Positions 1-64,000 are shown, counted from the first letter of the stretch. The stretch is 64,000 nt of DNA from an uncultured Acidimicrobiia bacterium (GCA_963752385.1 CAVVYL010000065.1:274571-338570); one strand, 5' to 3'. Notes: generated from the letters alone by a model not told the origin. Made by a program: numbers and translations.

Positions 1-938
1 TCCCCCAGAATCTGACGGTGCGGATGATGGGGTGCCAGGTTGTCGCGAATGATCTCTATGGCGCCTTTGATGCCTGCCAGGGGATTCTTAATTTCATGGG
101 CCAATCCGGCCGCTAGTTCACCGATCGCCGAAAGCCTTTCCGTCTGTGCCAGATGCCGGTCTAGCAGTTTTTGCTCGGTGACGTTCTTCAAGACCGAGGA
201 GTAGCCGATGAGCTGGCCGTGGGCGTCGCGAACCGCTGTGCGCGTAAACAACACATCAATCGTCTGGCCGTCCTTCGTTAGTCGCTGAGTCTGATAGCTG
301 CGCAGATAACCTTCGGCCCGGGCAATCGCCGAGATCTTCTCCAGTTCTCTCTGTTCTCTCAGATGCTGCGGCAGGAGCACTTCCAGCGACTGTCCCAGCA
401 TTTCCTCTTCGGCAAATCCAAAAATCGCTTCGGCTCCTTTGTTCCAGGAGGTGATTCTCTCTTCGGGATCCAGTGTGACAATGGCATCCGCCGAGTTCCT
501 CAGAATGCTGGCAAAAAACTGATCTCTTCGCGCAATTTCGGTCTCGAGCTGACGAACGGAACTCAGATCGTGGCAAATAGCGACGCAACCGTTGGGGCGG
601 CCACTAGTGTCCTTTAGCAGCGAAACCGACAATCGCACCGGGATCTCACTCTCGCTCTTGCCCACCATCACACTTTCAAATTCCTGAACGTCACCCAAGC
701 TATCCAGGAGTTGCTTGAGTCTCACCAGCTCGGCGGTTCCATCCTTCAGGAGCACATCCACAGGGCGGCCAATCATTTCGTCTGCTGAGTAGCCTAGCAA
801 CTTCTGTGCTCCCGAACTAAAAGAGCTCAGTCGCCAATCGTGCCCGGCTGTCAGAATCGCCTCGGCGCACATCGTTCGGCAATGCTGGTAACAGAAATCT
901 GCTTCCCGATTTTGATGACGAAGGGACGATGGCTTCAT
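1..938 (-). CDS. PAS-domain sensor histidine kinase, 5' part of gene (runs off window start)
   Basis: Minus-strand ATG at 936-938 (MKPSSLRHQNREADFCYQHC...). The frame stays open to position 1. PAS-like segments are followed by the H-box ELAAGLAHEIKNPLAGIKGAIEII. It is absent from the ORF track because there is no in-window stop. Confidence 0.75.
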   Translation of the reverse strand, partial: MKPSSLRHQNREADFCYQHCRTMCAEAILTAGHDWRLSSFSSGAQKLLGYSADEMIGRPVDVLLKDGTAELVRLKQLLDSLGDVQEFESVMVGKSESEIPVRLSVSLLKDTSGRPNGCVAICHDLSSVRQLETEIARRDQFFASILRNSADAIVTLDPEERITSWNKGAEAIFGFAEEEMLGQSLEVLLPQHLREQRELEKISAIARAEGYLRSYQTQRLTKDGQTIDVLFTRTAVRDAHGQLIGYSSVLKNVTEQKLLDRHLAQTERLSAIGELAAGLAHEIKNPLAGIKGAIEIIRDNLAPHHPHRQILG

Positions 939-1317
939 GCGACCTGCTCCTTGTGGGTTTGCAGCTCGACCAATCGCTTTTGACAAAGCGAACGCTTCAA
1001 GACCCGCCGCGCACTCAGCGGTGCCAAGAAGAAGTGCAGTTTAGATTCCAAAGCCCATTTACTAACGACTTGAGGCCGCAAGGCCGACTGGCTCTAAGCC
1101 CATGCGAATCTTTCTCGCTGAGACTCCTAGAACGCATGCAGGCGAAGATGATTGGGTGTTTTCACCAGCGGGTGGGTCAAATGAGCCACTTCTACAAAAA
1201 AAAGCGTTCCTGGCCTGCATTTGAAGAACTGAGGGAGGAAGCCCTGTACAGACTCGACTTTGGTCGAGGACCAGGCAGTCGACCTTGCCGATCGGAGCCA
1301 GGGGGATCTCGAACATT

Positions 1318-2682
1318 TCACCTCTTCACTTCTTTCACGCCTTCAAGTCGCAACTGATATTTGTTGATCTTGTTATAAAGCGTTACTCGATCTATCTCCA
1401 GCCAGCGGGCTGCCCGGGAGATGTTCCAGCCGGTCTCATCGAGTACCCGCTTGATGTGTTGCGCCTCGAGGGCTGAGAGCGATTTGCTGTTCGAGAGCGG
1501 CTTGCTGTTGCCAGGATGAAACGGCAAGTCGCAGGGCTGGATTTCCTGTCCCTTGCAGACCAGCACCGCCCGTTCAATCGCATTCTGCAATTCCCGGGTG
1601 TTGCCGGGCCAGTCGTGGGCTTTCAGCAACTCCAACGCCTCCGCTGAAACACGGCTTACATGCTTATTCATGGCAGAACTGTGTTTTTTGACAAAGTGCT
1701 CGACCAGCAACGGTATGTCTTCGCGGCGATCGCGCAGAGGAGAAAGCGTGATGGAGAAGACGTTCAGGCGATAGTACAGATCTTCGCGGAAGCTTCCTTG
1801 AGCAACGATCGATTCGAGATTGCGATTCGTGGCAGCGATCACGCGAAAATCGACGGCAATGGGCTGATTCTCGCCGCCACGCGTAATAGTTTTCTCCTCC
1901 AACACGCTCAACAATCTTATTTGCGTCTTCAGGCTGATGTCAGCGATTTCGTCGAGAAACAGGGTACCTCCATCGGCCATTTCAAATTTTCCTTTGCGGC
2001 GGTACCGGGCTCCTGTAAACACTCCCTTCTCGTGACCGAACAACTCGCTCTCCAGCACCCCTTCGGCCAGCGCGCCGCAGTTCACAACCACGATTGGGGA
2101 GTAGCGCCGTCGGCTGTCGGCATGGATCGCCCGAGCGATCAGCTTTTTCCCGGTCCCGCTCTCACCGCGGATGAGGATCGTGGTATCGGTCTGCGACACC
2201 AGAGTGACTCGTTCGAGAACACGCTGCATGGCCGAGCTTTGGCCGATGATCTCGTGAAACTGGCAAATCTCGGCAATCTTCTCACGCAGACGGAGATTCT
2301 CAGAAACCAGCTCTCTGCGCTCGGCAGCGTTGCGCACCAGGTGTTTGAGGTGGTCCAGATCAATCGGCTTGACCACATAATCATAGGCGCCCTCCTTCAT
2401 GGCTCCGACAGCGGTGTCCACAGATGCGAAAGCTGACATGAGAATAATCGTGGCACTCGGATCGGCGGCCCTGATCTTTCTCTGCAGTTCCGGGCCGTCC
2501 ATCGTCTTGATGTCAAGCAGGTAGATGTCCCATGAGTTCTGTGCCAGCTTTTCGAGTGCGTCCTTTCCGGACACCGCAGCATCGACTGCGTAACCCTCCT
2601 CACGAAACCAGTTGCTCAGCGAATCCCTGACACTGGGTTCGTCGTCGCAGATCAGAATGCGGACTTGCTTTTTCTTCCCCAT
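1318..2682 (-). CDS. sigma-54-dependent Fis-family response regulator (NtrC-like)
   Basis: 454-aa ORF with an N-terminal receiver (ILICDDEPSVRDSL...DIKTMDG), an AAA+ sigma-54 interaction domain (GESGTGKKLIARAIH, GAFTGA-like) and a C-terminal Fis HTH (AARWLEIDRVTLYNKI). Confidence 0.9.
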   Translation of the reverse strand: MGKKKQVRILICDDEPSVRDSLSNWFREEGYAVDAAVSGKDALEKLAQNSWDIYLLDIKTMDGPELQRKIRAADPSATIILMSAFASVDTAVGAMKEGAYDYVVKPIDLDHLKHLVRNAAERRELVSENLRLREKIAEICQFHEIIGQSSAMQRVLERVTLVSQTDTTILIRGESGTGKKLIARAIHADSRRRYSPIVVVNCGALAEGVLESELFGHEKGVFTGARYRRKGKFEMADGGTLFLDEIADISLKTQIRLLSVLEEKTITRGGENQPIAVDFRVIAATNRNLESIVAQGSFREDLYYRLNVFSITLSPLRDRREDIPLLVEHFVKKHSSAMNKHVSRVSAEALELLKAHDWPGNTRELQNAIERAVLVCKGQEIQPCDLPFHPGNSKPLSNSKSLSALEAQHIKRVLDETGWNISRAARWLEIDRVTLYNKINKYQLRLEGVKEVKR

Positions 2683-2795
2683 GACACCACCTCTCTGCAG
2701 TCTCGTCTTGACCGGTTCACCCTGGAGGACGGCGGCTCGCCAGGAAGCTCTCCCTCCCGATTTTTTTCACGGCTCCCTCTCACGCTTCCACAGCT

Positions 2796-3066
2796 TCATC
2801 CCTTCACTTTCTGCTGCGCTGGCAGACGGAAGGCGACAGTGGTTCCCTCGCCACGGCGCGAGTCCACCTCGATGGTTCCGGAATGTTGACTCACGATGCC
2901 GTAGACAACCGCCAACCGAGGCCACGCCTTTGCCAACCTCCTTGTTCGAAAAGAATGGCTCGAATATGTGCCTGTGCACGTCTTCGTCCATTCCGGCTCC
3001 GTTGTCGCGGACAAGGACGTCCACTGCGTGCGCTTCTGGGATCCGAAGCTCGATCCGCGTTCATTC
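2796..3066 (-). pseudogene. remnant of histidine-kinase HATPase_c domain (frameshifted, N-terminally truncated)
   Basis: Two minus-strand frames carry consecutive HATPase boxes. One has VRDNGAGMDEDVHRHIFEPFFSNKEVGKG (N/G1/G2). The other has LAVVYGIVSQHSGTIEVDSRRGEGTTVAFRLP (G3). There is a stop upstream and no DHp domain. Confidence 0.5.
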
Positions 3067-3190
3067 GCCTTTATCGGCGGCCGTCTCTACGCCCGGCAGT
3101 CTCGCCGGTGACCTCTCCTTCCCGGCCATGAAACTGCTTCAGGCAAGGTTGGCAGCACTCGGGAGGTGCCTAATGTCCTGTTTCGCAACG

Positions 3191-12301: not shown

Positions 12302-12877
12302 GGCTGCCTCCTTACTTTCCTGCTGTCTAATAACCCGAACCGCTGCAGGGGCTGGCTTGCGATCCCGCAAAGGTTGTGCATGAGCTTTACCAAAGATCAT
12401 TGTTTCGTAACCTCAAGCTGAGTCAGGGGAAGGACACTTTCGAGTTGGACGGGAATGAGAATCCAGCTGCGTGAATTCACCCGTCTTGGGGGAAAGCCGC
12501 CGGAAGGTTATTCCCGCTTCGAGGGGGGATAGCGGACGCACAGCGACGGTGCTCGCGAAGCAGTCGTAAAGGGGATCTCCCGACAATAGGAACCAGCTGT
12601 CCTGAAGGCTCCTCGAGTTCAGAGTCCAGCCTTCAGACTGCCGTTCAGCAAGCTAAAGATTGGATTTTACGCCAACTTCAGGGTGTGGTGTCATGACCTG
12701 ATGAAAATCCAGATCGGTTGGGCCATGGCTTGCTTAATGCAGGTCAACGGCGGCGTTGTCGAGCGGCTCTGAGTCAGCAATGCCCTGAGAAAGGAACCCT
12801 CATGCCGGGCCAGATCCAGTACCTGATCAACCTCAGCAAAAATCTATCAGCTTGTTAGGCCGCGAGACGAGCAAATC

Positions 12878-13736
12878 ATGTCGTCCATCGAAGCTGTTAG
12901 CAAGCGGTACTCCGTGCTGATCTACTTCACCCTCGTGTTCGTCATCTCGTGGGGCGGCGGCTTCCTTATCCTCGGTCCCCGAGGCTTTCCCCTGAGAGCG
13001 GAAGAATTCGAGAGCCTGGGAGGATTGCTGTACGCCGCGATTCTAGCCGGCCCCTGCTTGGCGGGCATTCTAGCTGACGGGCCTCGTCTATGGGAGTCCG
13101 GGCCTCCGGGACGTTCTCACCCGGCTGCGCCGGTGGCGGGCAGGCTGGCGCTGGTACGTCCTCGCGCTGCTACCCGCTCTCGTGATGACCGCGACAGCTC
13201 TGCTGCTATCCCTCGTGTCCTCCGATTTCCGCCCCGCCATAATCGACTCCAACGATAAAGCCAGCATCGTGATGCGTGCCCTCGGCCCGGCCCTCATGTT
13301 TGGGTTCTTCGAGGAGATCGGCTGGACGGGTTTCGCCGTCCCCCACTTGCGCTCGCGTCACTCCATACTCACGACCGGGCTCGCGGTAGGTGTCGTGTGG
13401 GGAGCTTGGCACTTCCCGCTGTTTTGGGAAGGCGACAGTTTCTCCGCGACGCTCCCGCTCGCCATTTTGCTTACACGTCTCTTCTCCTGGCTGCCGCCGC
13501 TCCGAGTGCTCATGGTCTGGATCCACGACCGCACCCAAAGCCTCCCCGTGGTGATGTTCATGCACGCGGTCGTCTCATTCATTTCGCTCATCTTTCCCCC
13601 CGAGGCGCTGACCGGTGCCCGCCTCCTGACAAGCCTTCTCATGTCGGCGGCCACGATCTGGCTCCTCGTCGCAGCGGTCGGCATGGCCAACCGCCGGCGG
13701 CTCTCACGCCAACCGCTCCGGACGAGCCTGGTGTAA
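12878..13736 (+). CDS. CPBP family intramembrane metalloprotease (CAAX protease/Abi), single frameshift near 13071-13076
   Basis: The N-terminal ORF runs 12878-13258. After a frame change, frame 3 reads LTGLVYGSPGLRDVLTRLRRW....FFEEIGWTGF (EExxxR-like motif) and WGAWHFP (the H motif). Confidence 0.65.
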
Positions 13737-19752: not shown

Positions 19753-20479
19753 ATGACCATCCATATCACAAAGACGGTGCGAGAGGTTGCCGTTGAGCTG
19801 CCTGAAGCAACCCGAGTTTTCGAGAAGTTAGGGATTGACTACTGTTGTGGCGGTGGCAAGGCTCTGCAGGAAGCTTGTCTCGCGGCGGGCGTACCCACAG
19901 AAAAAGTCGTCGCTCTTTTGGAAGACGCTGCCCGTCTTGCGTGCAAATTCGATCAAGGCCCGTGACTGGAATTCAGCACCATTGGCTGACTTGGTAGCTT
20001 ACATCGTCACCCGGCACCATGAATTCACGCGAGAAGAACTGGTCCGGTTAAGCGAACTATTGGCGAAAGTCTGCTCGGTGCATGGAGAAAATCATCCAGA
20101 GCTCTGCAGACTCCACACCATCTTTCAGGAGCTGAAAGCCGAACTGATTGGACACATGTCCAAAGAAGAGCAAATCCTCTTTCCTTACATCGAAAATCTG
20201 GAGGCGGCCGTCGCACGCGGGGAGCCGGCGCCGACGCCAGTCTTCGGCACCGTGCGCTATCCTGTCCGGATGATGATACAAGAGCACGATGACGCCGGGC
20301 AGGCTCTCCGCGGCCTCAGGGAGGCGAGCTCGAATTACCAGGTTCCATCAGATGGCTGCGTCAGTTTCCGCACCTTGTATCGGGCATTGGAAGAGTTTGA
20401 GCAGGACCTGCATGAGCATATCCACTTGGAGAACAACATTCTGTTTCCGCGCGCGACTGAGCTGGAGGCGAGTGCCTGA
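19753..20479 (+). CDS. RIC/YtfE-like iron-sulfur cluster repair di-iron protein, copy 1 (ScdA_N domain + hemerythrin domain; frame change near 19955-19965)
   Basis: 19753-19965 encodes ...FEKLGIDYCCGGGKALQEACLAAGVPTEKVVALLEDAARLACKFDQGP*. The +1 frame continues ARDWNSAPLADLVAYIVTRHHEF...EEQILFPYIE...HIHLENNILFP, which are hemerythrin HHE motifs. The junction matches E. coli YtfE ...EKDWRSAPLAEIID. Confidence 0.7.
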
Positions 20480-31793: not shown

Positions 31794-31853
31794 AAGGTTG
31801 GCAGCTCCAGGCAAGAATTTTTCGAGCTAAGCGCTGGTGATCAATCTTCAGAA

Positions 31854-32663: not shown

Positions 32664-32718
32664 TGAATTGCTCTCGCAGTCGCTTTGGGTTGATTGTCGA
32701 TGGCGCTGTGCCAGTGTT

Positions 32719-37471: not shown

Positions 37472-39522
37472 CGCGTTCTCTCCCACAGCAACAAGGTGAG
37501 AAGCGTCACAAATATGTAAAACAAGTAGGCCGAGAGGCTGCCGGCCTGCAGCAGACGAATCCGTCGGGAAAGCCGAAGAACCGCACGATTCACGGGCTGG
37601 TAAAGCCACTTTTCGAATGTCGGTTCAATCTGGCTCTGGAAACGAATGGATTGCGTGAAATAGCGCGAGACCGCGAAGTCGGCCTGAACTTGCCGGCGCG
37701 GCCGATAGATGGCTCGGAAGATCATTTGCAGCGGCTTGGAGTAAGCTGTCCCCGTGTACTCCATCTGGGGCGTCAGGCGGTCCAGCCCGCAGTCCCAAGT
37801 CTCATCAACAACCGCTTTCTCTTTTCTGGCCCAAAGCCACCACAACGCTGCTGGAAGCGGCAGCAAAACCAGGAAGAACGAGAGCATGCCCACTGTCGAA
37901 ATCGATCCCTCAGAGGCGCCGAGAGCGTTCACGACCCAACCGTTGCCCGCGATCAGCTGCGGGCTGATCGCAGTTCCCAGCAGTTGCTGTGTGATCGGAT
38001 CCATCAACCGAAGCACACCTGGGGAAACAGTCCCAGAAAAATGCACGCGAGCCCGAAGAGTCCCATGCCGAGCAGCATCGAAGGCGAAGCTTCATGCGCT
38101 CCTTCGGCCTGCGGACTGCGTGGAAGGGAGAGGAAGGTAATTCCCATGGCTTTGACGAAGCAAGCAGCAGCTAGAGCGCCAGTCAGAGCGAGCAATGCCC
38201 CGGCAATGGGAAAGTTCAGGCGGACGAGCCGTTCGGTGGCGCTGAAGCCTTGCAGTAATGCCTGGTAAGTGAGCCACTCGCTGACAAATCCGTTCAGCGG
38301 TGGGAAGCCGCAAAGCGCAATGGCACCCAGGAGAAAGAAAAAAGCCGTTTTCGGCATCCTGCGGATCAGTCCACCCAGCTTTTCGAGGTCCCTGGTGTGA
38401 GCCCCGTTCAATACAGCGCCGGCACCCAGAAACAGCAGCCCTTTGAAGCAAGCGTGATTGAGGGTGTGATAAAGCGCCGCCACAAGCGCCAAGGCAGCCA
38501 GAACCGGCTGTCGGAAAGCGCTGAGCATCAGCGAGGCGCCGATTCCCATCAGGATGATGCCGATGTTCTCCAGGCTGCTGAAAGCCAACAGGCGTTTCAG
38601 GTCTTTCTGAACGAGCGCGTAGAGGACACCCAGTAAAGCAGAGAGCTGAGCCCAGCACAAGCAAAGTGATGCCCCACCAGGCGGGCGGGGTCCCCAGAAA
38701 ATCCAAGAGAACGCGAAGCAGCCCGTAGATGCCGCTCTTGAGCAGCACACCCGACATGAGCGCCGAAACGTTGGAAGGGGCCACGGGGTGAGCTTCGGGC
38801 AGCCAGACGTGCAAGGGAATGATCCCAGCCTTGACGCCGAATCCCACCAGGAAAAGGAAGAACGCGGTATGTCGCTGGAGCGGCGAAAGCCGTGTCCCCA
38901 GGAGATGGAAGTCTTCAAACCGAAAACTTCCAGCTGACTCTGGTAGAGCAGCAGGAAGCCAAGGATCAGACAGCCGGTCCCAATGTGCGACATCACGAAG
39001 AAAAGGACGCCGGCTTGCCGAGTCTTGGGCTCCTCGTGCTCGAAGCTAACCAGGACGAAGGCGGCCAGGGCCATCACTTCCCAGACCACCAGAAGGAAAA
39101 CAGCGTGGCTGGCGCAAAACACCAGCGTGTTGGCCAGCAGCAGCAAGTTAAAGAAGGCGGCCAGGGCGCCCACATTCTTGACCCCGTAATAGTGGGCCGC
39201 ATAGCCGATGGAGTAGATGGAAATGGCCACAGCCGACAACGAAATGAGCAAGACGAAGAACGCGCCCAACGGGTCCAGCTTCACGGCAAACGGAAACAGC
39301 GGCGTTGTCTAAAGGCAAGAGATCGAATGCCGGCGAAGGTCCATCTTGCAAGCATAACCAGGAAGCCGCCATGCCTGCCAAGCCGCCAAGGCAGGAGCCT
39401 AAGAAACCGAGCGTATTCGCCAGCCTTTGCTGGCGCGTGAATGCCAGTGCGAGGGCCGCCCCAATGAAATAGGCAAGCAGGCAGGAACGGAATAGCAAAA
39501 GGACAACCTGTTCAGAAACCAT
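37468..39522 (-). pseudogene. HyfB/NuoL-like antiporter subunit, paralog 1, with at least four frame disruptions
   Basis: Homology to paralog 2 is spread over ORFs 39148-39522, 38004-39284 (frame A), 38092-38847 (frame B, FGVKAGIIPLHVWLPEAHPVAPSNVSALMSGVLLKSGIYG) and 37468-38046 (DETWDCGLDRLTPQMEYTGTAYSKPL...). Confidence 0.65.
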
Positions 39523-39576: not shown

Positions 39577-41668
39577 TTAGAACCATGGGAAAACCTCCCG
39601 CAGGTCACTCGTACCGTACTGGATCTTCTCCCAGAGCAGCAGAACGATGAGGGTCAGGAAGATGTAAACCAGGTAGGTGGTGAGGCTCCCGGTTTGAATC
39701 AGGCGTACGCGCCTGGAAAACCGAAGGATGGCGCGATTGACCGGACGATAAATCAACTGCTCAAATGTCGGCTCAATATGGCTCTCAAAGCGAATCGACT
39801 TGGTGAAGTAGCGCGACACGGCGAAGTCGGCCTGAATTCGACGTCGCGGCCGGTAAATCGCCTGAAAGATCATGCGCAAGGGCTTGGAATAAGCCGTCGC
39901 CGTGTACTCCATCTGCGGCGTCAGACGGTCCAGCCCGCAGTCCCAGGTTTCATCCACGCGATGCCGGCCACGCCGCGAGAAACCAGCCACAAGGCCAGAG
40001 GCAAAGGCAGCAGCGCCAAGAAACAGCGCCGCCATCCCTGGTGTCGAAATCGCCCCCCGCTCGACCGCTAGAGATGTCACCATCCAGCCATTCCCAGCGA
40101 TCAGTTGCGGGCTAATCTCTTGCTCCAGTAACTCCTGTGTAACTGGATCCAAAAGAGGAAGGAACGCCATGGGAAACACGCCGAGTACCACGCAAGCCAG
40201 TCCGAGAGTCGCCATACCGAAAAGCATCGAGCGCGGCGCCTCGTGCGCTTTTTCTGCCTGCGGGCTTCGTGGCAGAGCAAGAAAAGTGATCCCCACTGCC
40301 TTGACGAAACAGGCCGCGGCCAAAGCGCCTGTCAGAGCCAACAGGGCACCGCCAATCGGGAAGATCAGCCGCACGGCGATCTGGGTGGCGCCAAAGCCCT
40401 GCAGAAGCGCCTGGTAGGTCAACCACTCGCTGACGAAGCCGTTTAAGGGAGGAAGACCCGAGATAGCCACAGCCCCCAAAAGGAAGAAAAACGCTGTCCA
40501 GGGAAGACGGCGAATCAACCCGCCCAGCTCTTCCATGTTTCGAGTCCCAGTGGCGTGGAGCACTGCCCCGGCGCCCAAGAACAGCAGGCCTTTGAAGCAG
40601 GCATGATTCAACGTGTGGTAGAGGCCCGCTACCAGCGCCAGCGCGGCGAGGGCCGGCTGATGGAATGAAATGAAGAGTAACGAGGCGCCTAAGCCCATCA
40701 GGATGATCCCGATATTCTCGATGCTGTGAAACGCCAGCAAGCGCTTGAGATCGTGCTCCACCAGGGCATAGAGCACGCCCAGCAGAGCGGATATCGATCC
40801 GGCAGCGAGAATCAGAAGACCCCAGAAGACGGGAGGCGGAGTCAAGAAGTCAAAGAAAACCCGAACCATCCCATAGATCCCAGTTTTGATGAGCACGCCA
40901 GACATGAAGGCGGAAACATTGGTGGGAGCCACCGGATGCGCCGCTGGCAGCCAGATATGCAACGGGATGACTCCAGCCTTGATGCCGAATCCCACGAAGA
41001 AGAGAAAGAAGGCCGCCGTGCGTCGCGAGAGCGAAAGCTGGGCTCCGATGTTGTGAAGATCTTCAAAGCGGAAACTGCCGTTGACCTGAAAGAGCAGCAG
41101 AAAGCCCAAGATCAAACAGCCAACGCCAATGTGCGACATGACGAAATACAACATCGCCGGCTCGCCGTGCTTCCGGGTGTTCATGCTCAAAAACTACCAG
41201 CACAAAAGCAAAGAGGGCCATCAACTCCCAGGCAATGAGAAGGAAGACCGCATTATCAGCACAGAAGATAAGCGTCGTGGCGAGCAGCAGAAGATTGAAG
41301 AAGCCCGCCAGACTGCCCACATTCTTGACACCGTAGTACTGGGTAACGTAACCGTAGGAATAAATGGATATGGCCAGCCCCAGCAGCGAAACCACCAGAG
41401 TGAAGAACGCCGCCAAGGGATCGAGCTGAATTGAAAAGCGGACCAGCGGCGTCGCAGCTGGCAAGAGTGTGAAGGCCGGCGAAGTCCCCTGACTGAGGCC
41501 AGTGAAGGATGCCCAACAGCCGGCCAGCCCTCCGATCCACGCCCCGAAAAAGCCAGCCAGGCTGGCCATCCTGGGAAAGCGAGTCAGAGCAAAGGAGGCC
41601 ACGGCGCCGACAGCGTATGCCCACAAGGAGATTGGAAGCAGGTGAACCGCGAATTGCTCCAGTCCCAT
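39577..41668 (-). CDS. HyfB/NuoL-like antiporter subunit, paralog 2 (one frame change near 41150-41190)
   Basis: N-terminal ORF 41063-41668 (MGLEQFAVHLLPISLWAYAVG...) and the 537-aa ORF 39577-41190 (FGIKAGVIPLHIWLPAAHPVAPTNVSAFMSGVLIKTGIYG...). Together they are about 697 aa. Confidence 0.75.
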
Positions 41669-48498: not shown

Positions 48499-50012
48499 TC
48501 ATCGAATTGCTGGTGCCGGCATCGCTGTCAGTATCTCGCGTCCGATTGTTGCGACTTGAAGGTCAATCTTCTTTGCCAAACTCTGGACCTCTTTCAAATA
48601 GGCGGGATCGTCCTCGCTGCCATTCTCGTGACCAACAAGAGCCGCCACGAAATACTCCCCAGGAACGATTCCGTTTAGCGAAAACCGACCTTCATGATCT
48701 GTTTGTCCCGTAATAATGAATCGCGAGTTCGGTACCCAATTCTTGCGAGCGATGGAGTAAACAAGGACAGTCGCACCTTTCACCATCTCATTATTTTCCT
48801 CAGTTTTCACCGCCCCCGTCAGCTGCGCTGCTGGCGAAGAGATCACTATCTCAGTGCCGGTCATTTCCAACTTCAACGGTCGCACTTGCCACTTGTGCTC
48901 TGCCTTCTTTGAACACTCCAGCTATGATCCGGTAGGAGCCCGGAAACAGGTTAATGAGTTTGAAATCTCCGTTCAAATCAGGACGGTAGACAGTTGAAGG
49001 ACCAATGTGGCCTGCAGTGGATCTGACAGGGCAAACTAATGCGTTAAACGCTGGCTTGCCCTCCGGTGCTACGACCCTACCACTGACTGAATAACCCATT
49101 GACTCGACCAAGGTTATGTCCATCCCCCTGTTACACTGGACGCGCCCACCTCAATCTTCGTCGAGTCCTGGAAATCGAGAACTCCTGGATAAAACGTTGA
49201 AGGATAGGAAGATTGTGTAGCCGAGCCAGGAATTCTGAAGGAGAGATAGGTAGCGCTCAGGTAGTAAGTCCCTGGGAGCACATCGAAGAGACGGAACTGT
49301 CCAAGGTCGTCTGTCCTAGCAACCGCCGTTGGCTCAAGTTTCCCACTCGCGTAACGACTCAGTCCTACATTGACGTTGCATAATGGTCCCCCGTGGTCAA
49401 ACACACGACCTCCACGACGCCACCACGCACAAGCTGGATGTCAATCCTGTCAATTGTCTCACCAGGTCGCACTACGACGGGACTCCCGGTGGGAAGTTTC
49501 GCTGAATCGGAGGCTACATTGAGGGGATCTTTTTGGCCGTATAGCTGGACCAGATAACCGTTTCGGTATGCCATCACAGAGTATTTGCCCGGCACGACCT
49601 GCCTAAACTCGTACTCTCCAGCGTCATTTGTCTTTGTGGACAGCGGCTCGATCTCGAGTCGCGATTCCAACGGCCTCAAGGCAACGGTAGTCTTGTTCAA
49701 GACTGCACCGGAAACTGCATCTACTATCTTTCCCTTGAGAGTTCCATGTTTTTTCTGGCCCGTAACAGTCTCTTCCAGTGCCTGCGCTAAATTCTGAGAT
49801 TGAGCGAGACCAGGGCTACGGCCAATGGAGCTACAGATGAACAGCAGAACGCTTGACCAGGTTAGCTTGATGACGGAAATCCTGTGATTAGAGATACGAG
49901 ATCGCATGGCTAGATTCCGGAACCGCCTGGAACCAGGTAATGCCCTCGTTAGACTCTCTTGCACGGCGTGCAACACTTTTGGAATACTACCATCCAAAGG
50001 CAAGTTCCACAA
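48499..50012 (-). CDS. carboxypeptidase regulatory-like domain protein (about four tandem CarboxypepD_reg domains; split by three frame changes)
   Basis: It spans four consecutive minus ORFs (49365-50012, 49114-49404, 48851-49123, 48499-48885). Each carries G.V.D...G..L....V.L....TD..G.F.F..L.PG.Y-type motifs, for example GKIVDAVSGAVLNKTTVAL...TNDAGEYEFRQVVPGKY. Confidence 0.6.
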
Positions 50013-52947: not shown

Positions 52948-53053
52948 GCATTCTGTCTAAGAGTATCCGTTGACAAGGCCAATCCTGAGAGAGAACCGTC
53001 CGTTGGAAGAAGAGACACCTCTTCGATAGGGGCGTCCGAGAAAGGAAACAACA

Positions 53054-56000
53054 ATGACCACCACAGACGGCATGAAAGTTTGTTTGACGAAGAAGGACAC
53101 ATGGTGGTTGACGCTGGCAACAGCGTTGATCGCTTGGCTGGTTTCCAGCTATGCGATCGAGCCAGCTAGTGTGACCTTCAGGCTGCCATTCCGGATGGAT
53201 TCCAGGCGAATCTGCGACACGTCACTTTTGACCCCGCCTCTCCCCAAACGAATTTCAGCCGCATACACACCAAAACAGCGCAGCCATGAGATCGGCAAGA
53301 CCTTTGGAAAATTTCCGCTCAGCTTTGAAGTAAACCACGGGCAATTGGATCCACATAGTGAAGTTCGTCTCCCGAGGTCGAGGATACACGCTCTCTTTAA
53401 CGGCGAATGAAGCCGTGTTTCATTTCTGGAGCGGAGATCTCGAATCGCGAAATGAACAAACCCTTACGCCTTCGGATGCGAGACCTGCAAGACTCTTCTC
53501 TTTTTTCCAAATTTCGGCCCCGGAACTTTCGCGGGTGGCGGGGAGAGATATTAAGGAACCACTGGTGAATCGGCGACCTTCGGATCGGCGACCCGAAGTC
53601 CCCAATCTGCAATCTCGATCGGTTCGCATGAAACTCATCGGCTCTAATCCCAGGGTAGCAGTCGAAGGAATCGACAGGCGGGCGGGGATTACCAATTACT
53701 TCATAGGCAACAATCCTGAGAAATGGCGAACAAACATACCGAATTATTCCAGAGTCCGTTATCGCGACATCTATCCTGGTATTGACTTGGTCTACTACGG
53801 AAATCCTGAACAGCTTGAGTATGACGTTGTGGTTGCTCCAGGCGTTGACCCGCAATCTTTTTTGATGACGTTTGATGGTGTTGACCATCTTTCAATCAAT
53901 GAAAGCGGCGATCTGGTCATGGAAGTCGCTGGATCACAGATACTTCAGCATAAACCTCAAGTCTACCAATGGATCAAAGGAAAGCAGAGAAATGTCCCAG
54001 GAGAATATCGACTCACCAGAGAAATGCAAGTCGCGTTTTCGGTGGGGGATCATGATGTGACGAAGCCGCTTTTTATCGACCCTGTTTTCTCGTTTACGTT
54101 CACTGGCCGCGGTTATGCGTCCGGGATCGTCCTGGATTCAGCAGGCTCGGCTTGCATTATAGGTCACGCGCTCACCCCCGACTTTCAGACCACCCCTGGG
54201 GCGTTTCAAACAACGGGAGATGGCGCTTTCGTAGCCAAACTGAACCCTGCGGGTACCGAACTCGTCTACTCTACTTTCCTCGGCGGGAGTGGAAGCGACA
54301 CTGCCACCGGCATAGTCGTTGATCAGAGCGGGAATACTTATATCGCCGGTTTCACCAATTCATCCAACTTCCCAACGACTCCCGGGGCTTTGCAGCCGGC
54401 GTATGCCAGCGGCTCGACCTCCTTCGGACCTTCCGATGCCTTTGTGACCAAACTGAATCCCACAGGAACAGCCCTGGTCTACTCGACCTACCTGGGAGGG
54501 AAGGATTATGACTCAGGGGCTGGGATTGCAGTCGACGCCGCAGGAAATGCTTACACCACCGGCAGCACTTCGTCCACGGACTTTCCAGTCAGCCCATCGT
54601 TTCCGAATCCACCCGGCGCCTTTCAGAAAAGCAACGGTGGAAGCGAAGACGTTTTCGTAGCCAAGCTCAACCCGCTTGGGTCGGCGTTGGTCTATTCTAC
54701 TTACCTCGGTGGGAGTCGTGACGAATTCCCCGCTGGCCTTAGAGTGAATAGCGCCGGCGAAGCCTATGTGGCAGGAACTACAGGATCGGACAACTTTCCC
54801 CTGACAGCTGGAGCTTATCAAACCCAGTTCTGGGGAGGACATGGGATGTCTTCGCCACGAGGCTCAATGCTTCAGGAACGGGTCTCATTTATTCGACCTA
54901 TCTCGGAAGTGCAGAGGAGGAAATCGCAGCGGGCCTTGCCTTGGATTCTCAAGAGAATCTTTACATCTCTGGCCCGTCCTTTGTAAAGATACTTAACTCC
55001 GCCGGCACCCATCAGGTTTATTCCACCCATTTGGCAGGTGGTTTTCCTCCTGGTACTGGTTTACCTGGAACAGGCAGGATCGAAGTGGATTCGGCAGGCA
55101 ATGTGTACGTCCTGGATTCCCAGTCCTTGAAGAAGCTGAATCCCCGTGAGGATTCCATTTTGAGCACAATCCCGTTCGGAGGTTACGATCCAAGGCTCGA
55201 TATCACGAGCTTCGCGTTGAATCCTGCTGGAGAGTTATATGTCACAGGGTCGAAGAGTACCGGAGCGATCATTTACGGCCTCGGAATAGTCTCTTATCAG
55301 AACCAGAACGTCTACGTCGCCAAGTGGACCGAAACTGAAAGTGCAACTCTATTCGTTCCCATTGTCCTCTCGGCATCCGGACTCAACAACTCGTTCTTCA
55401 CTTCCGAATTGACACTCACTAACAGAGGTCCGAAAGACGCCACACTCGATTTGACCTATGTCCCTGCCTTCGGCGAAGGGAGCGGGTCTGTCACAACGAC
55501 ACTTCCGGCGGGGAAACAGTGGATCTTTCCGGATGCAATCGAGTATCTGAGATCTCTCGGTTTGCCAATCCCAGCAACTGGAGATCAGGGTGGGACTGTA
55601 TCGATTCACGTTGCTGGAGTACTTCGCCTTCCGATGTTGCGGCGATGGTGCGAACCACCACCCCGGCAGGCAGAGGCCGTGCCGGTTTGGCTTACCCTGC
55701 CGTACCCGCTTCCAAGGCCTTGAACGATCCAGTCTATCTCTTAGGGCTTCGCCAGAACGAACAGGACCGATCCAATGTTGCCGTTCAAAACGCCGGCGGC
55801 CCGGGGGAAGGGGACATCGTACTCCGTCTCACGATATTTTCAGGTGACCGAGGCAGACCTCTCTCGCTCGTGCTGCCTGAGATACAACTGGGGCCAGGTG
55901 AATTCCGGCAGATCAACGGCATCCTCAATTCCGTTGGAGGTGCTTTGCAGAGTGGATACGTCCGTGTCGAAAAACTCAGCGGCTCAGCTCCTTACTACGC

Positions 56001-56833
56001 TTACGGCGTTATTAATGACCAAATGAGTTCCGACGGATCCTTTGTTCCGCCAACACCAAGATTTCTGGCAGCCGGGCAAGATGCGCTGTGGTTGCCAGCG
56101 GTGGTTGAGTCAGACGAGTTTGACACCGAGGTAGTCGTCACAAACTGGTCTGCAAATCGGAAAGTAATCCAGCTGGGTTTTCAGGCGCAAGCCTTGGCAA
56201 ATGCCGAAAAGACAGCCGTTGTTTCTGTTGAACTTGAAGGCGGAGAGCAAAAAATCATCCCCAGTTTTGTTCAATATCTGAGGGACCACGGATTGGGCGA
56301 TGTTGGCCCTATGGGACCGACTTATGTGGGGACAGTGATTGCAAGAGATGCCACTCAACTTAAGGGCTATGATCTGGAAGGCGTCTCCGTCAGCGCGCGC
56401 ACGTCTGCACAGGGTGTTGGAGGTAAGTATGGGGTCTTTTACTCTGGTGTACCCCAGAGTGAAACATCTCTATTTTCCAGCGTTTGGCTTTATGGCTTGC
56501 AGCAGAATACGGAGAATCGTACCAACCTGGCCCTGGCAAGTACAGGAGTTCCGGGCTCTCAAGAGCAAGCTGCCAATGAATTCAGGATTGAACTTTTTGA
56601 CGGTGACAACGGTTCTCGGGTCAGTCTCATCGAGAATGTCACTCTCGGTTTTGAGCCCTGGAAACAACTGGACTCCATCCTGGCGCAACTATGCCCCCAC
56701 CACACAACAAGGCTATGCCAGAGTGTCACGAACAAAAGGTGGGTCACCGTTTATCGCTTATGCGGTTATCAACGATGGCTCCGCTCCAGGCGAGCGGACG
56801 GGAGATGGAGCGTTCATACCAAGCTCGCCCTGA
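53054..56833 (+). CDS. large secreted SBBP (beta-propeller) repeat protein, split by at least four frame changes
   Basis: N-terminal TM/signal WWLTLATALIAWLVSSYA then GKFPLSFEVNHGQLDP // KFVSRGRGYTLSLTANEAV (a family N-terminal box). Repeated YSTFLGGSGSDTATGIVVDQSGNTYIAGFTNSSNFPTTPGA SBBP units follow. The ORFs are 53054-53410, 53358-54986, 54941-55723, 55519-56925 and 56339-56833. Confidence 0.65.
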
Positions 56834-56877
56834 GCCTGCTGAGGCTGGGGAAGGCACGAAGATGGAGGCCGTCTCTT

Positions 56878-58173
56878 TCAGAGACCAGAAGTGTCTTTCG
56901 GAGCGGCCGCAACCCGAATCGATGAATCAGACTGATCGACATTCTCAGCTTTCGCCAAATGGAGAGTTGGAGAATAATGCCCGATTTGGTTGCCAAGATG
57001 TTTTTGCGCACCACAGGCGGGGGGCGGCTGCAGCCGCGAAAGATCCGGCAGAGTCTGGCTCAGCAAGATCAGCTCATCGCCTTCGCGCAACGGTCCCGCT
57101 TCCCCGCCAACCGGGTTGAGCATCATTGTTTCACCGCGATAGAGCCCGATGAGAAGGCACGCCTTCATGTTCGTGCGATCGGGCAGGAACACGTTTGCCG
57201 CTGCGACGAAATCCATCCCAACAAGTTGGGCAGGCACCGGCACCAGGTACATCTCGTTGGCGTCGCGCCGGACCGATAGCAGCTCTTGATAAACGCGCGT
57301 CATGCCATGAAAGAGCGAGGCACGTGCCATCAGCCGCAATCCGAAGTCGGCGGCCGAGATGACTTCATCGGCACCCGCCTTGCGCATGTGCAGCCGGTAT
57401 TTCGGATCCTGGCACTCGACCACGATGTTTGGCTGGCGCTCTTGCACGCAAACGTTCTTGACGGCAATGCAGCACACGATGGTTTTTCCGTCGGCATGCT
57501 GGTCCTGGCGGTCATCCGACAAGATGACGACGGAATGCGCTTGCGCAACCTTGGCGCGGCGCAGGATCACTTCGTTGGCTGGGTCACCTTTGACGATATA
57601 GACGTCGTTGAAGGCGGCTTCATCCTGTTTGTCAGGCAGCACGACTTCGTCGGGTGTGTCGTGAACGATCACGACTGGCCGCTTGTCGGTGATACCGCTG
57701 TGCACTTCGCGTATCCAGTCTAGTGCTCGCGGCGACCAGTTGCACAGCACCAGATGGTCAGACATTTCAAGATTAGACACCTCACGACTCCTTAGTGAGC
57801 GTTCGATCAGGATCGACGCCACGCTGGCCGTGAACAAACCGGCCAAGGCGACACCGACGACAAGCACGGCGGAAACCACGAGCCGCCCAACAGGAGAGTT
57901 GGGCGCGTTGTTGAGTCCGCTGAAGAGGGTGACCCAGACGTTCCAGAGGGACTCGCCCAACGTCTCGAACGCTGGATTCGTGCCACGCTCCGCGAAGTGG
58001 AGTGCTGTGCCGCTGACGATCCAGATCACCACGATAGCGGTCAGGATTTTCCAGACTTGGTGGCGGTTCCACGCCGTTAGCACGCTCAGCAAGGTGCCGC
58101 GCCACGACGCCTTGTCCCGAACTCGGCCGAGCTCGCTCAAAGCCGAGCCTCTGCGTCCGGAGCCATAACTCAT
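56878..58173 (-). CDS. potassium channel with tandem RCK/TrkA domains
   Basis: Two TM helices plus a pore region (WKILTAIVVIWIVSGTALHFAE...LWNVWVTLFS) followed by two TrkA_N-like Rossmann segments (HLVLCNWSPRA...; HSVVILSDD...). Confidence 0.7.
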   Translation of the reverse strand: MSYGSGRRGSALSELGRVRDKASWRGTLLSVLTAWNRHQVWKILTAIVVIWIVSGTALHFAERGTNPAFETLGESLWNVWVTLFSGLNNAPNSPVGRLVVSAVLVVGVALAGLFTASVASILIERSLRSREVSNLEMSDHLVLCNWSPRALDWIREVHSGITDKRPVVIVHDTPDEVVLPDKQDEAAFNDVYIVKGDPANEVILRRAKVAQAHSVVILSDDRQDQHADGKTIVCCIAVKNVCVQERQPNIVVECQDPKYRLHMRKAGADEVISAADFGLRLMARASLFHGMTRVYQELLSVRRDANEMYLVPVPAQLVGMDFVAAANVFLPDRTNMKACLLIGLYRGETMMLNPVGGEAGPLREGDELILLSQTLPDLSRLQPPPACGAQKHLGNQIGHYSPTLHLAKAENVDQSDSSIRVAAAPKDTSGL

Positions 58174-61030: not shown

Positions 61031-61243
61031 TTACATTCTCTCTAAAAACTCCCGCGGATGTTTCTCAGAACATACAGAGACGAAATTGAATAATCCTCTT
61101 TCCGCTTTCGCCAGCTCGCGGCAGAGATCATTGAAAGTCTGCTCCATCCCTTCCTCGAAACGCTCGCGGTACGACTTTGGATAGAAACGAAGCAGTTTTA
61201 GGTACAGCTTCCGGTATCGTGCAATCGGGTGTTCATATGCCAT
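61031..61243 (-). CDS. hypothetical protein translationally coupled to PadR (possible truncated permease-prefix-like N-terminus)
   Basis: Its ATG at 61243 overlaps the corrected PadR stop (ATGGCATATGA). MAYEHPIARYRKLYLKLLRFYPKSYRERFEEGMEQTFND. Confidence 0.35.
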   Translation of the reverse strand: MAYEHPIARYRKLYLKLLRFYPKSYRERFEEGMEQTFNDLCRELAKAERGLFNFVSVCSEKHPREFLERM

Positions 61244-61594
61244 ATGTGTATGTGTTGGGTGAAAGCTTATTGCGCTTGGCGACCGCCACGACCTCGCGGT
61301 ATCGCTTCAATTCCGCTGCGAGCGCGTCTTGGCCGAGGCCGGTGATTTTGTAGTACACTCGCCGTTCATCGTCCATATCGGGGTCTCTTTTTTTTCGCTC
61401 TCGCGTATGAGTCCCGTCTCAATCATCCGGCCCAACGAGCCGTAGAGCGTTCCCGGCCCCATATTTACCTTTCCCTGCGAATCCGCTTGGACTTGCTTCA
61501 TAATTCCGTAGCCGTGCCGCTCTTTCACGGAGAGCGCAAGGAGGATATGAAGTACCGCCGGAGTCAGGGGCGCGTTGGCTTTGTTGTTTGCCAT
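61233..61594 (-). CDS. PadR-family transcriptional regulator (frame change in T8 homopolymer at 61389-61396)
   Basis: LTPAVLHILLALSVKERHGYGIMKQVQADSQGKVNMGPGTLYGSLGRMIETGLIRESEKK. After a -1 shift the sequence reads RDPDMDDERRVYYKITGLGQDALAAELKRYREVV, which is the canonical PadR C-terminus. Confidence 0.75.
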
Positions 61595-61939: not shown

Positions 61940-63518
61940 TTACGGCAGAGCCGGCTGGTGCGTCGCCCACCACTCCCGCGCCCGTTCCTGGGTCCAGGCG
62001 CTCGCGCCTTCCACCTCGGCCAGCCGAAGCGACAGCTCTCTGGCGGACTGCGGTCGATTCGCGGGGTCCTTGGCCAGACAGGATAGCACGAGGTCATCGA
62101 GTGCCCTGGGGATCGGCAGGTCCGTCCGGGCTGATGGAGGCGTGGGCGGAGTCTGGGCGTGATGCAGGAGCAGCCCCATGGGGGTCTCGGCGGTGAACAC
62201 GAGTTGCCCGGTCAGGAGCCAGTAGGCGACACAGCCGGTCGCATAAATGTCGGCGCGCCCGTCCAAATCGGTCTCCCATCGCCTGCTCGGGCGCAATGAA
62301 CGCCGGCGTACCATGGACCGCGTTCTCCCGCGTGTGCACCGGGCTCGTGTCCGCGGGGTCGCGGACTGCCCCCACAATTCCGAAATCCAGCACCTTCACG
62401 AAGTCGTACTCCTCGCCGTACCGGCAGAGGAAGATGTTCGCGGGTTTGATGTCGCGATGAACCAGGCCGCAGGACTGGGCCTCGGACAGCGAGTGACAGA
62501 CCTGGCGAAGCAGGTAGATGGCCCGTTCGGGCGGGGTCGGCCCGAAGCGCCGAAGCAGCGAGTCGGCATCGAGGCCATCGAGCAGCTCCATGACGTAGTA
62601 GAAGGCGCCGTCGGCGGCGATCCCGAAATCGAAGAGCTCCACGGTATGGGGTGAGCGGAGACGGGCGATCACCTGCGCTTCGCGCTCGAATCGGCGGGCC
62701 GCCTCCTCCGACACTCCGGCACGCGCATTCCCGGCGAAGGAGGGCCGAATCAGCTTGATGGCGGCAGGCCTTGCCAGCATGCGATGCCGGGCTCGCCAGA
62801 CCTCGCCCATCCCTCCCTCGCCGAGCTTCTCCTCCAGGCGGTAGCTCCCCAGCTCGCGCGCGCGCTTGACCTCGGTGCCCAGATGGTAGACCACGCGGGC
62901 TCCGACATAGGCCATGCCCACCACGAGGAGATATGGGAACACGAGACCGAAGAAGAACTGTGCCGGATCTATCCGGAACGAAGTGGCGCCGGACGCCATC
63001 ACGAGCCCGATGACGACGGCGACCGAGCTGACCGATGCCAGGGCGGCCACCACCGCGCGGCGCGGGGAGGTCGGCACGACGACCGTGAACAGCACGACCC
63101 AGACGGCGACCCAGGAGAGCCCCAAGCAGCCCCGGTGCGTCTCGAGGTGCATGGGATCGGCGAACTCGGCCGCGGCGATGGCGTAGCTGCTGACGATCTC
63201 GAATGCCAGACCGAGGTTCATCGCCGTGGGAAGCGGAACGCGCGGGCTCCGGATCACCGCCGCGACGAGCACCGCCACCACGATCCCGATGACGCCGGGA
63301 CCCCACTGCACGAAGCTGCCGAGGAATCGGGCCCGATCGCCCGGGAACAGCAGCGCCGGAAAGATTCCGGCCATGAAGAAGACGAACGCGTACAGCAGGG
63401 CGAGGACGCGGAGGCGTCCGGCAGACTGGCGGAGCAGATCGACCGGGAATCCCGACGAGATCCCTCGAGCGGTCGGGTCACCCGCGTCGGGGGGCATGAG
63501 AGTGACGTGCTCGTGCAT
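61940..63518 (-). CDS. Ser/Thr protein kinase with N-terminal polytopic membrane domain (frame change near 62270-62300)
   Basis: Kinase motifs GEGGMGEVWRA, AIK, HRDIKPANIFL, DFGI and GTPAFIAPEQ. The C-lobe DLDGRADIYATGCVAYWLLTG... continues in ORF 61940-62377. Confidence 0.75.
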
Positions 63519-64000
63519 GCCGAGGCTCCAAACGGTACGGGCAAAATGTCTTGCCGTTTACCTCGTGGGCAATGGCGGTCGTCGCTTCGCTGGGACACTC
63601 TGCTCACCCTCTGACCGACGCAGCACGCTGCGGGTGAGCCGGAGCCGCTTCGAGCCGTTATGCCCTTGCGGTTGGTGCCGCACTGCGGCCGACTGCCAAC
63701 CTCAGAACATAGTCAAAGTGCCTTATGCCAACCCAGGCGAGCCTTCCCACCTCACTGACCGACTGGACGACCTCCATCGCGAACTGCCAGACAAGCGGCC
63801 TGGCCATCTTTGTGTCTTGCCGGGCCGAGTAACGGGTAACCACCGAGCAAGCAACGAAGAGGAATGCTGCCTTGACGGGCGCTTTGCCTTGCCGCTCTGT
63901 TGGTCTCTCCTGACTGGCCTAACGCCTAGATAACCTGTGGTTTTGCGAAGCAAAAGCATCAGGTTGATCTAGATGTTAGGCGGCCCGGACTCAGCTTTTC

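What the first reader, a model, noticed from the sequence alone, without database searches (positions are those of the whole stretch)
1..64000. Pervasive single-frame disruptions in conserved genes, including one inside a T8 homopolymer: likely assembly indel errors (or massive pseudogenisation)
Frame changes split at least the following.
- CPBP protease (about 13073)
- RIC copy 1 (about 19960) and RIC copy 2 (about 27515)
- NuoCD-like subunit (about 32975, in a GGCCC run)
- HyfF-like subunit (about 34745)
- HyfB paralogs (five sites)
- carboxypeptidase-regulatory-like gene (three sites)
- SBBP protein (four or more sites)
- PadR (T8 run at 61389-61396)
- Ser/Thr kinase (about 62285)
- HK remnant (about 2925)

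Several sit in homopolymer or dinucleotide tracts. This density, about one per 3 kb, is far above what intact operons tolerate and is typical of uncorrected long-read or homopolymer-prone sequencing.
Basis: seen in the sequence. Interest (0 to 1): 0.6.

Follow-up and report, generated by a model that had tools for sequence, protein, structure and literature searches.

The report
Assembly indel errors splitting many genes
About two dozen 1-2 base insertions or deletions break 13 otherwise healthy genes in this 64-kb stretch of an uncultured soil bacterium's genome, and comparison with close relatives shows that nearly all are consensus errors of a long-read metagenome assembly, not real gene decay.

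Summary

The window comes from a public 348,526-bp NCBI/ENA contig whose truncated products are on record. I could not confirm that contig's sequencing platform.

Evidence that almost all breaks are consensus errors:
- Every event is a 1-2 nt indel, with no nonsense codon, no larger or 3n deletion, and no IS insertion in the broken genes.
- Relatives at 82-96% identity and a same-species contig (L170) carry single-frame genes at 17 of the 18 sites that could be compared.
- The window lineage shows no relaxed selection. dN/dS is 0.06-0.09 in broken genes. 72% of window-specific substitutions downstream of the first frameshift still fall on third codon positions of the ancestral frame.
- Sister "contig_N" assemblies of the same or related populations have their own, different frameshifts.

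- Only 2 of 23 sites lie in homopolymers of 5 or more bases (T8, G5).
- Errors cluster in the hyf-like operon.
- The SBBP gene has three sites, not four or more.
- The truncated histidine-kinase remnant and one switch near 48890, shared by three assemblies, may be genuine.

This is ordinary, low-interest data-quality news.

The parts
2767..3086 (-). Truncated histidine-kinase remnant (C-terminal HATPase_c only). It has two -1 shifts about 15 nt apart near 2905-2930 (GGG->GG and TTT->TT inferred). This one may be a genuine dead fragment.
   Evidence: 'VRDNGAGMDEDV..FEPFFSNKEVGKG', 'GLG' and 'LAVVYGIVSQHSGTIEVDS..GEGTTVAFRLPA' lie in three different frames. No HisKA or N-box lies upstream. One search gives weak tblastn hits to HK C-termini.
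12827..13736 (+). CPBP/Rce1-like protease gene with one frame change somewhere in 13074-13258 (best estimate 13075, called as +1).
   Evidence: coding HMM; the downstream piece matches Rce1-like and CPBP_MmRce1 positions 89-234 of 271, starting at its residue 29. No ortholog was available.
19753..20479 (+). RIC copy 1 (ScdA_N + hemerythrin) with a +1 insertion of G at 19941.
   Evidence: domains in different frames; extra G relative to JGI contig L171, whose RIC is an intact 241 aa; 90.9% aa identity end to end after one correction.
27392..28145 (+). RIC copy 2 with a frame change at about 27513-27517 (+1 or -2). The N-terminal region is also unusually diverged and the DYCC tyrosine is missing.
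   Evidence: No close ortholog, so this is protein-level only.
31841..32722 (-). SAM-methyltransferase gene embedded in the operon. It has a -2 deletion at 31964 and a net shift near 32698 (+1 G).
   Evidence: three-way alignment; the same events appear against L161 (92% aa), L162 and L168.
32719..34316 (-). NuoCD-like fused subunit with a -1 deletion at 32973, in a CCGGGCCCGGG context.
   Evidence: Orthologs are 532 aa in L161, L162 and L168.
34376..35850 (-). HyfF-like antiporter subunit with a -1 deletion at 34750 (GG->G).
   Evidence: the 368-aa truncated product is on record on the source contig, and 7 cluster mates at >=90% identity are 491 aa.
37468..39522 (-). HyfB paralog B with four events: 39309 +1 (G), 38941 +2 (AG), 38643 +1 (C), 38017 -1.
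   Evidence: the corrected protein matches intact 683-aa orthologs at 90-93% identity over 100% of its length.
39577..41668 (-). HyfB paralog A with a +1 (A) at 41154, plus a compensated pair: +1 near 40023 and -1 at 39983. The pair misreads about 13 codons without closing the ORF.
   Evidence: L161, L162 and L168 all disagree with the window at the pair; the 201-aa truncated product is on record.
48499..50012 (-). Gene with four CarboxypepD_reg domains and three frame switches. 49410 is -1 (GGG->GG, window only). 49128 is -1 (G6->G5, shared with L169 but not L170). The switch near 48890 is shared by all three assemblies, so it is a real frameshift or a real gene boundary.
53030..56925 (+). 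DUF7948/SBBP repeat protein gene with three events: 53355 +1, 54841 +2, 55620 +2.
   Evidence: all three are window-only relative to the same-species contig L170, whose ORF runs through 54841 and 55620.
61233..61594 (-). PadR regulator with a frame change inside the T8 run 61389-61396 (A8 on the coding strand; A9 inferred, i.e. -1).
   Evidence: the corrected sequence aligns with PadR structures over residues 19-104; the 95-aa truncated product is on record.
61940..63518 (-). Ser/Thr kinase with a +1 insertion at about 62270.
   Evidence: 90.7% identity over all 525 aa of P0573 after one correction; the 474-aa truncated product is on record, and cluster mates are 525 aa.

Best explanation
The window is a piece of a public metagenome-assembled contig (348,526 bp, NCBI/ENA) from an uncultured bacterium, probably an acidobacterium. 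Its consensus carries uncorrected 1-2 nt insertion and deletion errors. Each error shifts the reading frame, so gene callers report truncated or split products.

Shown:
- The indels are in the deposited sequence.
- They are absent from orthologs and from another assembly of the same species.
- The affected genes are still under strong purifying selection in their original frame.

Inferred:
- The assembly is Nanopore-only (Flye plus one Medaka round, as in the Microflora Danica long-read MAG set). The errors would then arise from low or mixed coverage.
- A minority are classical homopolymer under-calls (T8, G5).
- The excess in the hyf-like operon comes from local coverage or strain-mixture effects during polishing.

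Two items may be genuine rather than errors. One is the truncated histidine-kinase remnant. The other is the frame switch near 48890, which recurs in three assemblies.
For: 1. Spectrum. All 23 events are +/-1 or +/-2 nt. There are no in-frame stop codons in any frameshift-aware alignment, no window-specific 3n or larger indels in coding sequence, and no IS insertion.

2. Not shared.
- L162 (1.76-Mb contig) and JGI contig L168 carry the same operon with the genes that are broken in the window as single ORFs. L168's HyfE is called as two adjacent ORFs.
- JGI contig L171 has an intact RIC.
- Same-species contig L170 lacks the window's events at 53355, 54841, 55620, 49410 and 49128.
- Cluster mates at >=90% identity are full length for HyfF (491 aa) and STK (525 aa).

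3. Selection.
- Window-branch dN/dS is 0.081 for HyfB-A, 0.086 for HyfB-B, 0.067 for HyfF and 0.060 for NuoCD. Intact neighbours give 0.033-0.15.
- Window-specific substitutions downstream of the first frameshift fall 26:17:112 on codon positions 1:2:3 of the ancestral frame, P=8e-24 against uniform.

4. Sister assemblies err differently.
- L161 has five private +1 insertions.
- L169 has about 15 private -1 deletions where the window is intact.
- L170 has 36 private indels in 4.9 kb, against 2 for the window.
- L167 has split ADH and Usp genes.

5. Provenance and context.
- Truncated products are on record on the source contig.
- The MFD-LR paper describes Nanopore-only Flye plus one Medaka round and notes Nanopore-associated errors at low coverage.
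Against: - Only 2 of 23 sites are in runs of 5 or more bases. Many are non-homopolymer single-base or 2-nt insertions, which is not the textbook Nanopore error profile.
- Events are over-represented in one functional unit: 11 of 23 lie in the 11.1-kb hyf-like operon (P=7e-4). Operon-wide decay would also produce this pattern.
- Two switches in the CarboxypepD_reg gene recur in a second assembly and one recurs in a third. They are therefore either systematic errors or real.
- No reads or coverage were available.
- The link between the source contig and a Nanopore project is inferred from contig naming and accession neighbourhood, and was not verified.
Confidence: 0.88

Rival explanations
1. Genuine, very recent pseudogenisation. 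The strain has really lost the hyf-like complex, the RIC proteins, PadR, the kinase and others through frameshift mutations, for example after a mutator episode. Operon-wide decay would explain the cluster in the hyf-like genes.
For: - Events cluster in one multi-subunit operon.
- The truncated products are present in the deposited sequence.
- Two switches in the CarboxypepD_reg gene recur in independent assemblies.
- The HK remnant is clearly a dead fragment.
Against: - dN/dS is not relaxed on the window branch, and third-position dominance persists downstream of the frameshifts.
- Four independent frameshifts in one 2-kb gene come with only 10 nonsynonymous changes on the branch.
- There are zero nonsense codons, zero indels longer than 2 nt and zero IS insertions.
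- Insertions are about as common as deletions, unlike the deletion-biased spectrum known for bacterial pseudogenes (established knowledge).
- Same-species contig L170 lacks five of the six events it can be compared at.
Confidence: 0.05
2. Same artefact, different cause. The errors come mainly from collapsed strain or species heterogeneity rather than from low coverage. Reads from co-occurring relatives at 85-97% identity would map to the contig during polishing and produce a mixed consensus with spurious indels, especially in conserved operons.
For: - Several populations with 86-97% identical copies of these genes exist in the same family of samples.
- L169 switches between 99.4% and 97.1% identity to the window along its length.
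- Events cluster in the conserved hyf-like operon.
- There are paired compensating +1/-1 events 40 nt apart.
Against: There are no read data. The window shows only one private substitution in the 4.9-kb three-way comparison, so its base calls are not obviously chimeric there.
Confidence: 0.35
3. Programmed ribosomal frameshifting or transcriptional slippage restores the full-length proteins, so the shifts would be functional.
For: The PadR site is an A8 run on the coding strand, a motif type that can support slippage.
Against: - Orthologs at 82-96% identity encode the same proteins in a single frame.
- The sites share no slippery motif.
- A single gene would need up to four shifts of different sign and size.
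Confidence: 0.01

Closest known systems
Consensus indel errors in Nanopore-only metagenome assemblies (Flye + Medaka MAGs, e.g. the Microflora Danica long-read catalogue, PMC12313526)
   Same: - Short indels split conserved genes.
- Error load varies between contigs of the same population.
- Some errors sit in homopolymers (T8, G5/G6, GGGCCCC) and recur at the same site in independent assemblies.
- Contig naming ('contig_N') and ENA analysis accessions of the sister contigs fit this kind of data.
   Different: - Most events here are not in homopolymers, and several are 2-nt insertions.
- I could not verify the sequencing platform or coverage of the source contig.
Pseudogene-rich genomes undergoing reductive evolution (e.g. 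Mycobacterium leprae, recent insect symbionts)
   Same: High density of frame-disrupted genes, including several hits within one gene and one operon.
   Different: Those genomes also show nonsense mutations, larger deletions, IS expansion and relaxed dN/dS. None of these is seen here.
Programmed frameshifts (prfB, dnaX, IS3-family transposases)
   Same: Two overlapping reading frames encode one protein.
   Different: Programmed sites are conserved among orthologs and have slippery motifs. Here the orthologs are in a single frame and the sites are heterogeneous.

Membership tests
Sequencing/assembly consensus indel errors | Disruptions are short indels only, with no nonsense substitutions or large deletions | tested here: met
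   23 of 23 events are +/-1 or +/-2 nt. No in-frame stops appear in the frameshift-aware alignments.
Sequencing/assembly consensus indel errors | Events are private to the assembly and absent from conspecific or closely related sequences | tested here: met
   17 of the 18 events that could be compared at nucleotide level are absent from at least one relative or from same-species contig L170. The exception is the switch near 48890.
Sequencing/assembly consensus indel errors | Affected genes still evolve under purifying selection in the original frame | tested here: met
   Window-branch omega is 0.06-0.09. Codon positions 1:2:3 are hit 26:17:112 times downstream of the first frameshift.
Sequencing/assembly consensus indel errors | Enrichment in homopolymers (the classical Nanopore/454/IonTorrent signature) | tested here: inconclusive
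   2 of 23 sites lie in runs of 5 or more, against about 1% of background windows. The other 21 sit in ordinary context.
Sequencing/assembly consensus indel errors | Reads do not support the consensus at the sites, or coverage is low or mixed | not testable with these tools
   No reads or coverage were available. The platform is inferred only.
Genuine pseudogenes (gene decay) | Relaxed selection (dN/dS approaching 1) on the lineage carrying the disruption | tested here: not met
Genuine pseudogenes (gene decay) | Mixed spectrum of lesions (nonsense, larger deletions, IS insertions) with deletion bias | tested here: not met
   Only 1-2 nt events were found, about 13 insertions against 10 deletions.
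Genuine pseudogenes (gene decay) | The lesion is inherited and therefore shared by conspecific genomes | tested here: not met
   L170 lacks 5 of the 6 comparable events. Only the switch near 48890 is shared by all three assemblies, and 49128 is shared with L169.
Programmed frameshifting / transcriptional slippage | The frameshift site and slippery motif are conserved in orthologs | tested here: not met
   Orthologs are single ORFs. The sites share no motif.

The most novel reading that the evidence does not exclude
The indels are real. This strain would have very recently inactivated its hyf-like (cysteine-less, Ehr-type) membrane complex, both RIC proteins and several regulators through an indel-only mutational burst. 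The burst would be so recent that no relaxation of selection is yet visible. That would be a snapshot of the first moments of operon-wide decay in a free-living soil bacterium.
Probability: 0.04. Interest if true: 0.45.

Novelty: not a real feature. Interest (0 to 1): 0.1.

Why it matters
The practical consequence concerns annotation. About a quarter of the genes in this stretch would be annotated as truncated, split or pseudogenes, and any metabolic or pseudogene inference from this MAG would be wrong. That includes any claimed loss of the hyf-like complex, of nitrosative-stress repair (RIC) or of regulators.

It also gives a worked example of telling errors from decay without reads. The method uses private 1-2 nt indels, intact orthologs, an unrelaxed branch-specific dN/dS, and third-position bias downstream of the lesion. 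There is no new biology here.

Tried and rejected
- Exact look-ups of two intact window proteins found nothing. A later look-up showed one of them is in the collection, so that was an index limitation and not evidence about provenance.
They were useful as distant homologs but not for nucleotide comparison.
- The homolog search with the SBBP piece found nothing above about 53% identity. Alignments to those distant repeats suggested an extra shift at 53624. I rejected it because the DUF7948 match runs in frame from residue 3 of that piece and L170 shows no difference there.
- I tested whether the CarboxypepD_reg frame switches reflect a tandem DNA repeat with a period not divisible by 3. No such repeat exists.
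- The coding HMM's 'shifts' at 20477, 34381, 35875, 36539 and 37487 are overlapping gene boundaries, not frameshifts.
- An apparent compensated pair at 23101/23117 relative to L171 is not a window error, because the window agrees with the 610-aa ortholog P0543.
- Apparent shifts at 21035/21123 lie in what looks like a non-coding extension of a gene call in L171.
- Attempts to tie the ERZ and ERR accessions to a publication failed.
Full report
**What is there**

The window (57% G+C) carries about 48 genes.
- Translating every stop-to-stop piece and scanning Pfam showed that adjacent pieces in different frames match consecutive parts of the same domain models. HyfF matches Proton_antipo_M 1-225, then 238-291. 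NuoCD's Complex1_49kDa match stops at 159 of 271. The Ser/Thr kinase matches Pkinase 1-168, then 175-254. In RIC1, ScdA_N and Hemerythrin are in different frames. In RIC2, ScdA_N is cut at 31 of 56.
- A homology-free seven-state coding HMM trained on the window's long ORFs independently called frame changes at 13075, 32977, 34752, 38017, 38652, 38921, 41196, 54844 and 62276. Its other calls are overlapping gene boundaries.

**Exact events**

I wrote a frameshift-aware protein-to-DNA aligner and ran it with homolog ORFs from fetched loci.
- HyfB paralog B has four shifts.
- HyfB paralog A has one shift plus a compensated pair.
- HyfF and NuoCD have one shift each.
- No in-frame stops were found.

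The corrected HyfB-B protein matched intact 683-aa proteins at 90-93% identity over its full length. That led to three relatives carrying the operon: L161 (84-90% nt), L162 (82% nt, on a 1.76-Mb contig) and the JGI contig L168 (85% nt).

A three-way nucleotide alignment identified the window-only, non-triplet indels:

| Position | Event |
|---|---|
| 41154 | +A |
| 40023 | +T |
| 39983 | -1 |
| 39309 | +G |
| 38941 | +AG |
| 38643 | +C |
| 38017 | -1 |
| 34750 | -1 |
| 32973 | -1 |
| 32698 | +G |
| 31964 | -2 |

In the same alignment L162 has no private frameshift in coding sequence, while L161 has five private +1 insertions of its own.

**Other sites**

- RIC1 carries an extra G at 19941 relative to JGI contig L171, whose RIC is an intact 241 aa. 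After one correction the window protein is 90.9% identical end to end.
- The kinase aligns with the 525-aa P0573 at 90.7% identity over its full length after a single +1 near 62270.
- PadR changes frame exactly at the A8/T8 run. The downstream frame reads the canonical 'DDERRVYYKITGLGQDAL', and the corrected protein aligns with solved PadR structures over residues 19-104.
- The HK fragment is a truncated HATPase_c remnant with two -1 shifts about 15 nt apart.
- CPBP (about 13075) and RIC2 (about 27515) could be supported only at the protein or statistical level.

**Same-species assemblies**

A representative search with the ORF at 47.5-48.4 kb showed it is a separate 280-aa gene. It is identical to a protein on a 348,526-bp NCBI/ENA contig, which is evidently the window's source. 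Two other ENA contigs carry the same species.

L169 is 99.4% identical over 47.4-50.4 kb and 97.1% identical over 41.7-47.4 kb, with an IS256-type insertion. It has about 15 private single-base deletions in places where the window's genes are intact.

L170 is 97.2% identical over 45.6-58.0 kb. It differs from the window by 65 small indels. At the window's own frameshift sites it carries the frame-restoring state:
- no extra base at 53355, 54841 or 55620;
- GGG instead of GG at 49410;
- G6 instead of G5 at 49128.

In the 4.9-kb three-way overlap the private indel counts are 2 for the window, 5 for L169 and 36 for L170. Private substitutions are 1, 16 and 68. The window is therefore the cleanest of three error-laden assemblies, but it is not clean.

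Two observations show that context-dependent errors recur across assemblies.
- At GGGCCCC (47842), both L169 and L170 have deletions where the window is intact.
- The G5 at 49128 is shared by the window and L169.

The switch near 48890 is shared by all three. It may be a genuine frameshift, or a real gene boundary with an ATG just upstream of the stop.

**Errors or decay?**

Branch-specific Nei-Gojobori counts use sites where L161 and L162 agree and the window differs. They give the following window-branch omega values:

| Gene | Status | Omega |
|---|---|---|
| HyfB-A | broken | 0.081 |
| HyfB-B | broken | 0.086 |
| HyfF | broken | 0.067 |
| NuoCD | broken | 0.060 |
| HyfC | intact | 0.033 |
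| HyfE | intact | 0.086 |
| HyfHI | intact | 0.150 |

- HyfB-B has four frameshifts but only 10 nonsynonymous against 41 synonymous changes on that branch.
- From established knowledge of bacterial mutation spectra, indels are roughly a tenth of substitutions. Eleven neutral indels in 11 kb should then be accompanied by on the order of 100 neutral substitutions, mostly nonsynonymous. There is no room for them in the counts.
- Window-specific substitutions downstream of the first frameshift in each broken gene fall 26:17:112 on codon positions 1:2:3 of the ancestral frame (P=8e-24 against uniform). This matches the intact genes.
- None of the 23 events is a nonsense codon (P about 0.001 if a quarter of real lesions were nonsense).
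- None is longer than 2 nt.
- Insertions are as frequent as deletions.

**Provenance**

The truncated products are on record on the 348,526-bp public contig: STK 474 aa, HyfF 368 aa, HyfB-A 201 aa and PadR 95 aa. The frameshifts are therefore in the deposited sequence. Their cluster mates at >=90% identity are full length: HyfF is 491 aa in seven members and STK is 525 aa.

The sister contigs have Flye-style names and neighbouring ENA analysis accessions. The Microflora Danica long-read paper describes Nanopore-only Flye assemblies polished with one Medaka round, and it notes Nanopore-associated errors at low coverage. I could not link the accessions to that project, so the platform remains an inference.

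**What does not fit neatly**

- Only two sites are in runs of 5 or more bases (T8, G5). Most insertions are single bases, or 2 nt, in ordinary context.
- Eleven of the 23 events fall in the 11.1-kb hyf-like operon (binomial P=7e-4). Operon-wide decay would give such clustering, but the selection tests above exclude it unless the process was indel-only and extremely recent.
- Local low coverage, or cross-mapping reads from co-occurring relatives at 85-97% identity during polishing, is a plausible technical cause. It is untested.

**Verdict**

- The homopolymer emphasis is only partly right.
- The HK remnant and the switch near 48890 may be genuine.
- This is a data-quality artefact of a known kind. 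It matters for annotation but not as biology.

Noticed in passing
window 30930-41668 (- strand); L161, L162, L168: The hyf-like operon has this order: two HyfB paralogs, HyfC, HyfE, HyfF, fused NuoCD, a SAM-methyltransferase gene, then a fused Fer4-NuoB subunit. The embedded methyltransferase is conserved in all four relatives. The 532-aa NuoCD ortholog in L162 has no CxxC motif at all, so the complex looks like a cysteine-less, Ehr-type relative of group 4 hydrogenases.
   Followed up: partly
window 61940-64000: G+C jumps to 65.7% here. The kinase belongs to a >=90%-identity cluster of 67 proteins whose members come from MAGs labelled Gemmatimonadota and Tepidiformaceae. This could be horizontally mobile DNA, or a binning or assembly chimera at the end of the window.
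   Followed up: no
window 24735: This is a sharp homology breakpoint. To the left the window matches L171, where the FGE-sulfatase gene is 396 aa, whereas the window keeps only about 250 C-terminal residues. To the right it matches L163. It is either a rearrangement or deletion, or a chimeric join.
   Followed up: partly
window 47419-47426; L169 3011-4302: The same-species contig L169 carries a 1.3-kb IS256-family (Transposase_mut) insertion that is absent from the window and from L170. The flanks overlap by 8 bp, like a target-site duplication.
   Followed up: no
window 47842 and 49128: Independent assemblies make indel errors at the same G/C-run sites. At GGGCCCC, both L169 and L170 have deletions while the window is intact. 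At G5/G6, the window and L169 read G5 while L170 reads G6. Shared frameshifts between long-read assemblies are therefore not proof of reality.
   Followed up: yes
window 60630-61306 (- strand): The small gene after PadR ('MAYEHPIARYRKLYLKLLRFYPKSYRERF...') appears to change frame near 61055. A transposase-like N-terminal remnant ('AALEILALRQQLVVLKRKRPRPRL') lies at about 60630-60740.
   Followed up: no
window 30.2-42.8 kb vs L167: The relative L167 (about 78-81% nt) is collinear with the window on both sides but lacks the whole hyf-like operon and the RIC genes. These therefore sit in variable islands.
   Followed up: no
window 27479-27520: RIC copy 2 lacks the conserved tyrosine of the ScdA_N 'DYCC' motif and is poorly conserved for about 12 residues before its frameshift. 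It could carry further compensated errors or be genuinely degenerate.
   Followed up: partly
window 46.8-53.7 kb: This stretch has low G+C (51-52%). The coding HMM finds almost no typical coding signal even though ORFs are conserved with L169 and L170. It looks like atypical, possibly foreign, DNA.
   Followed up: no
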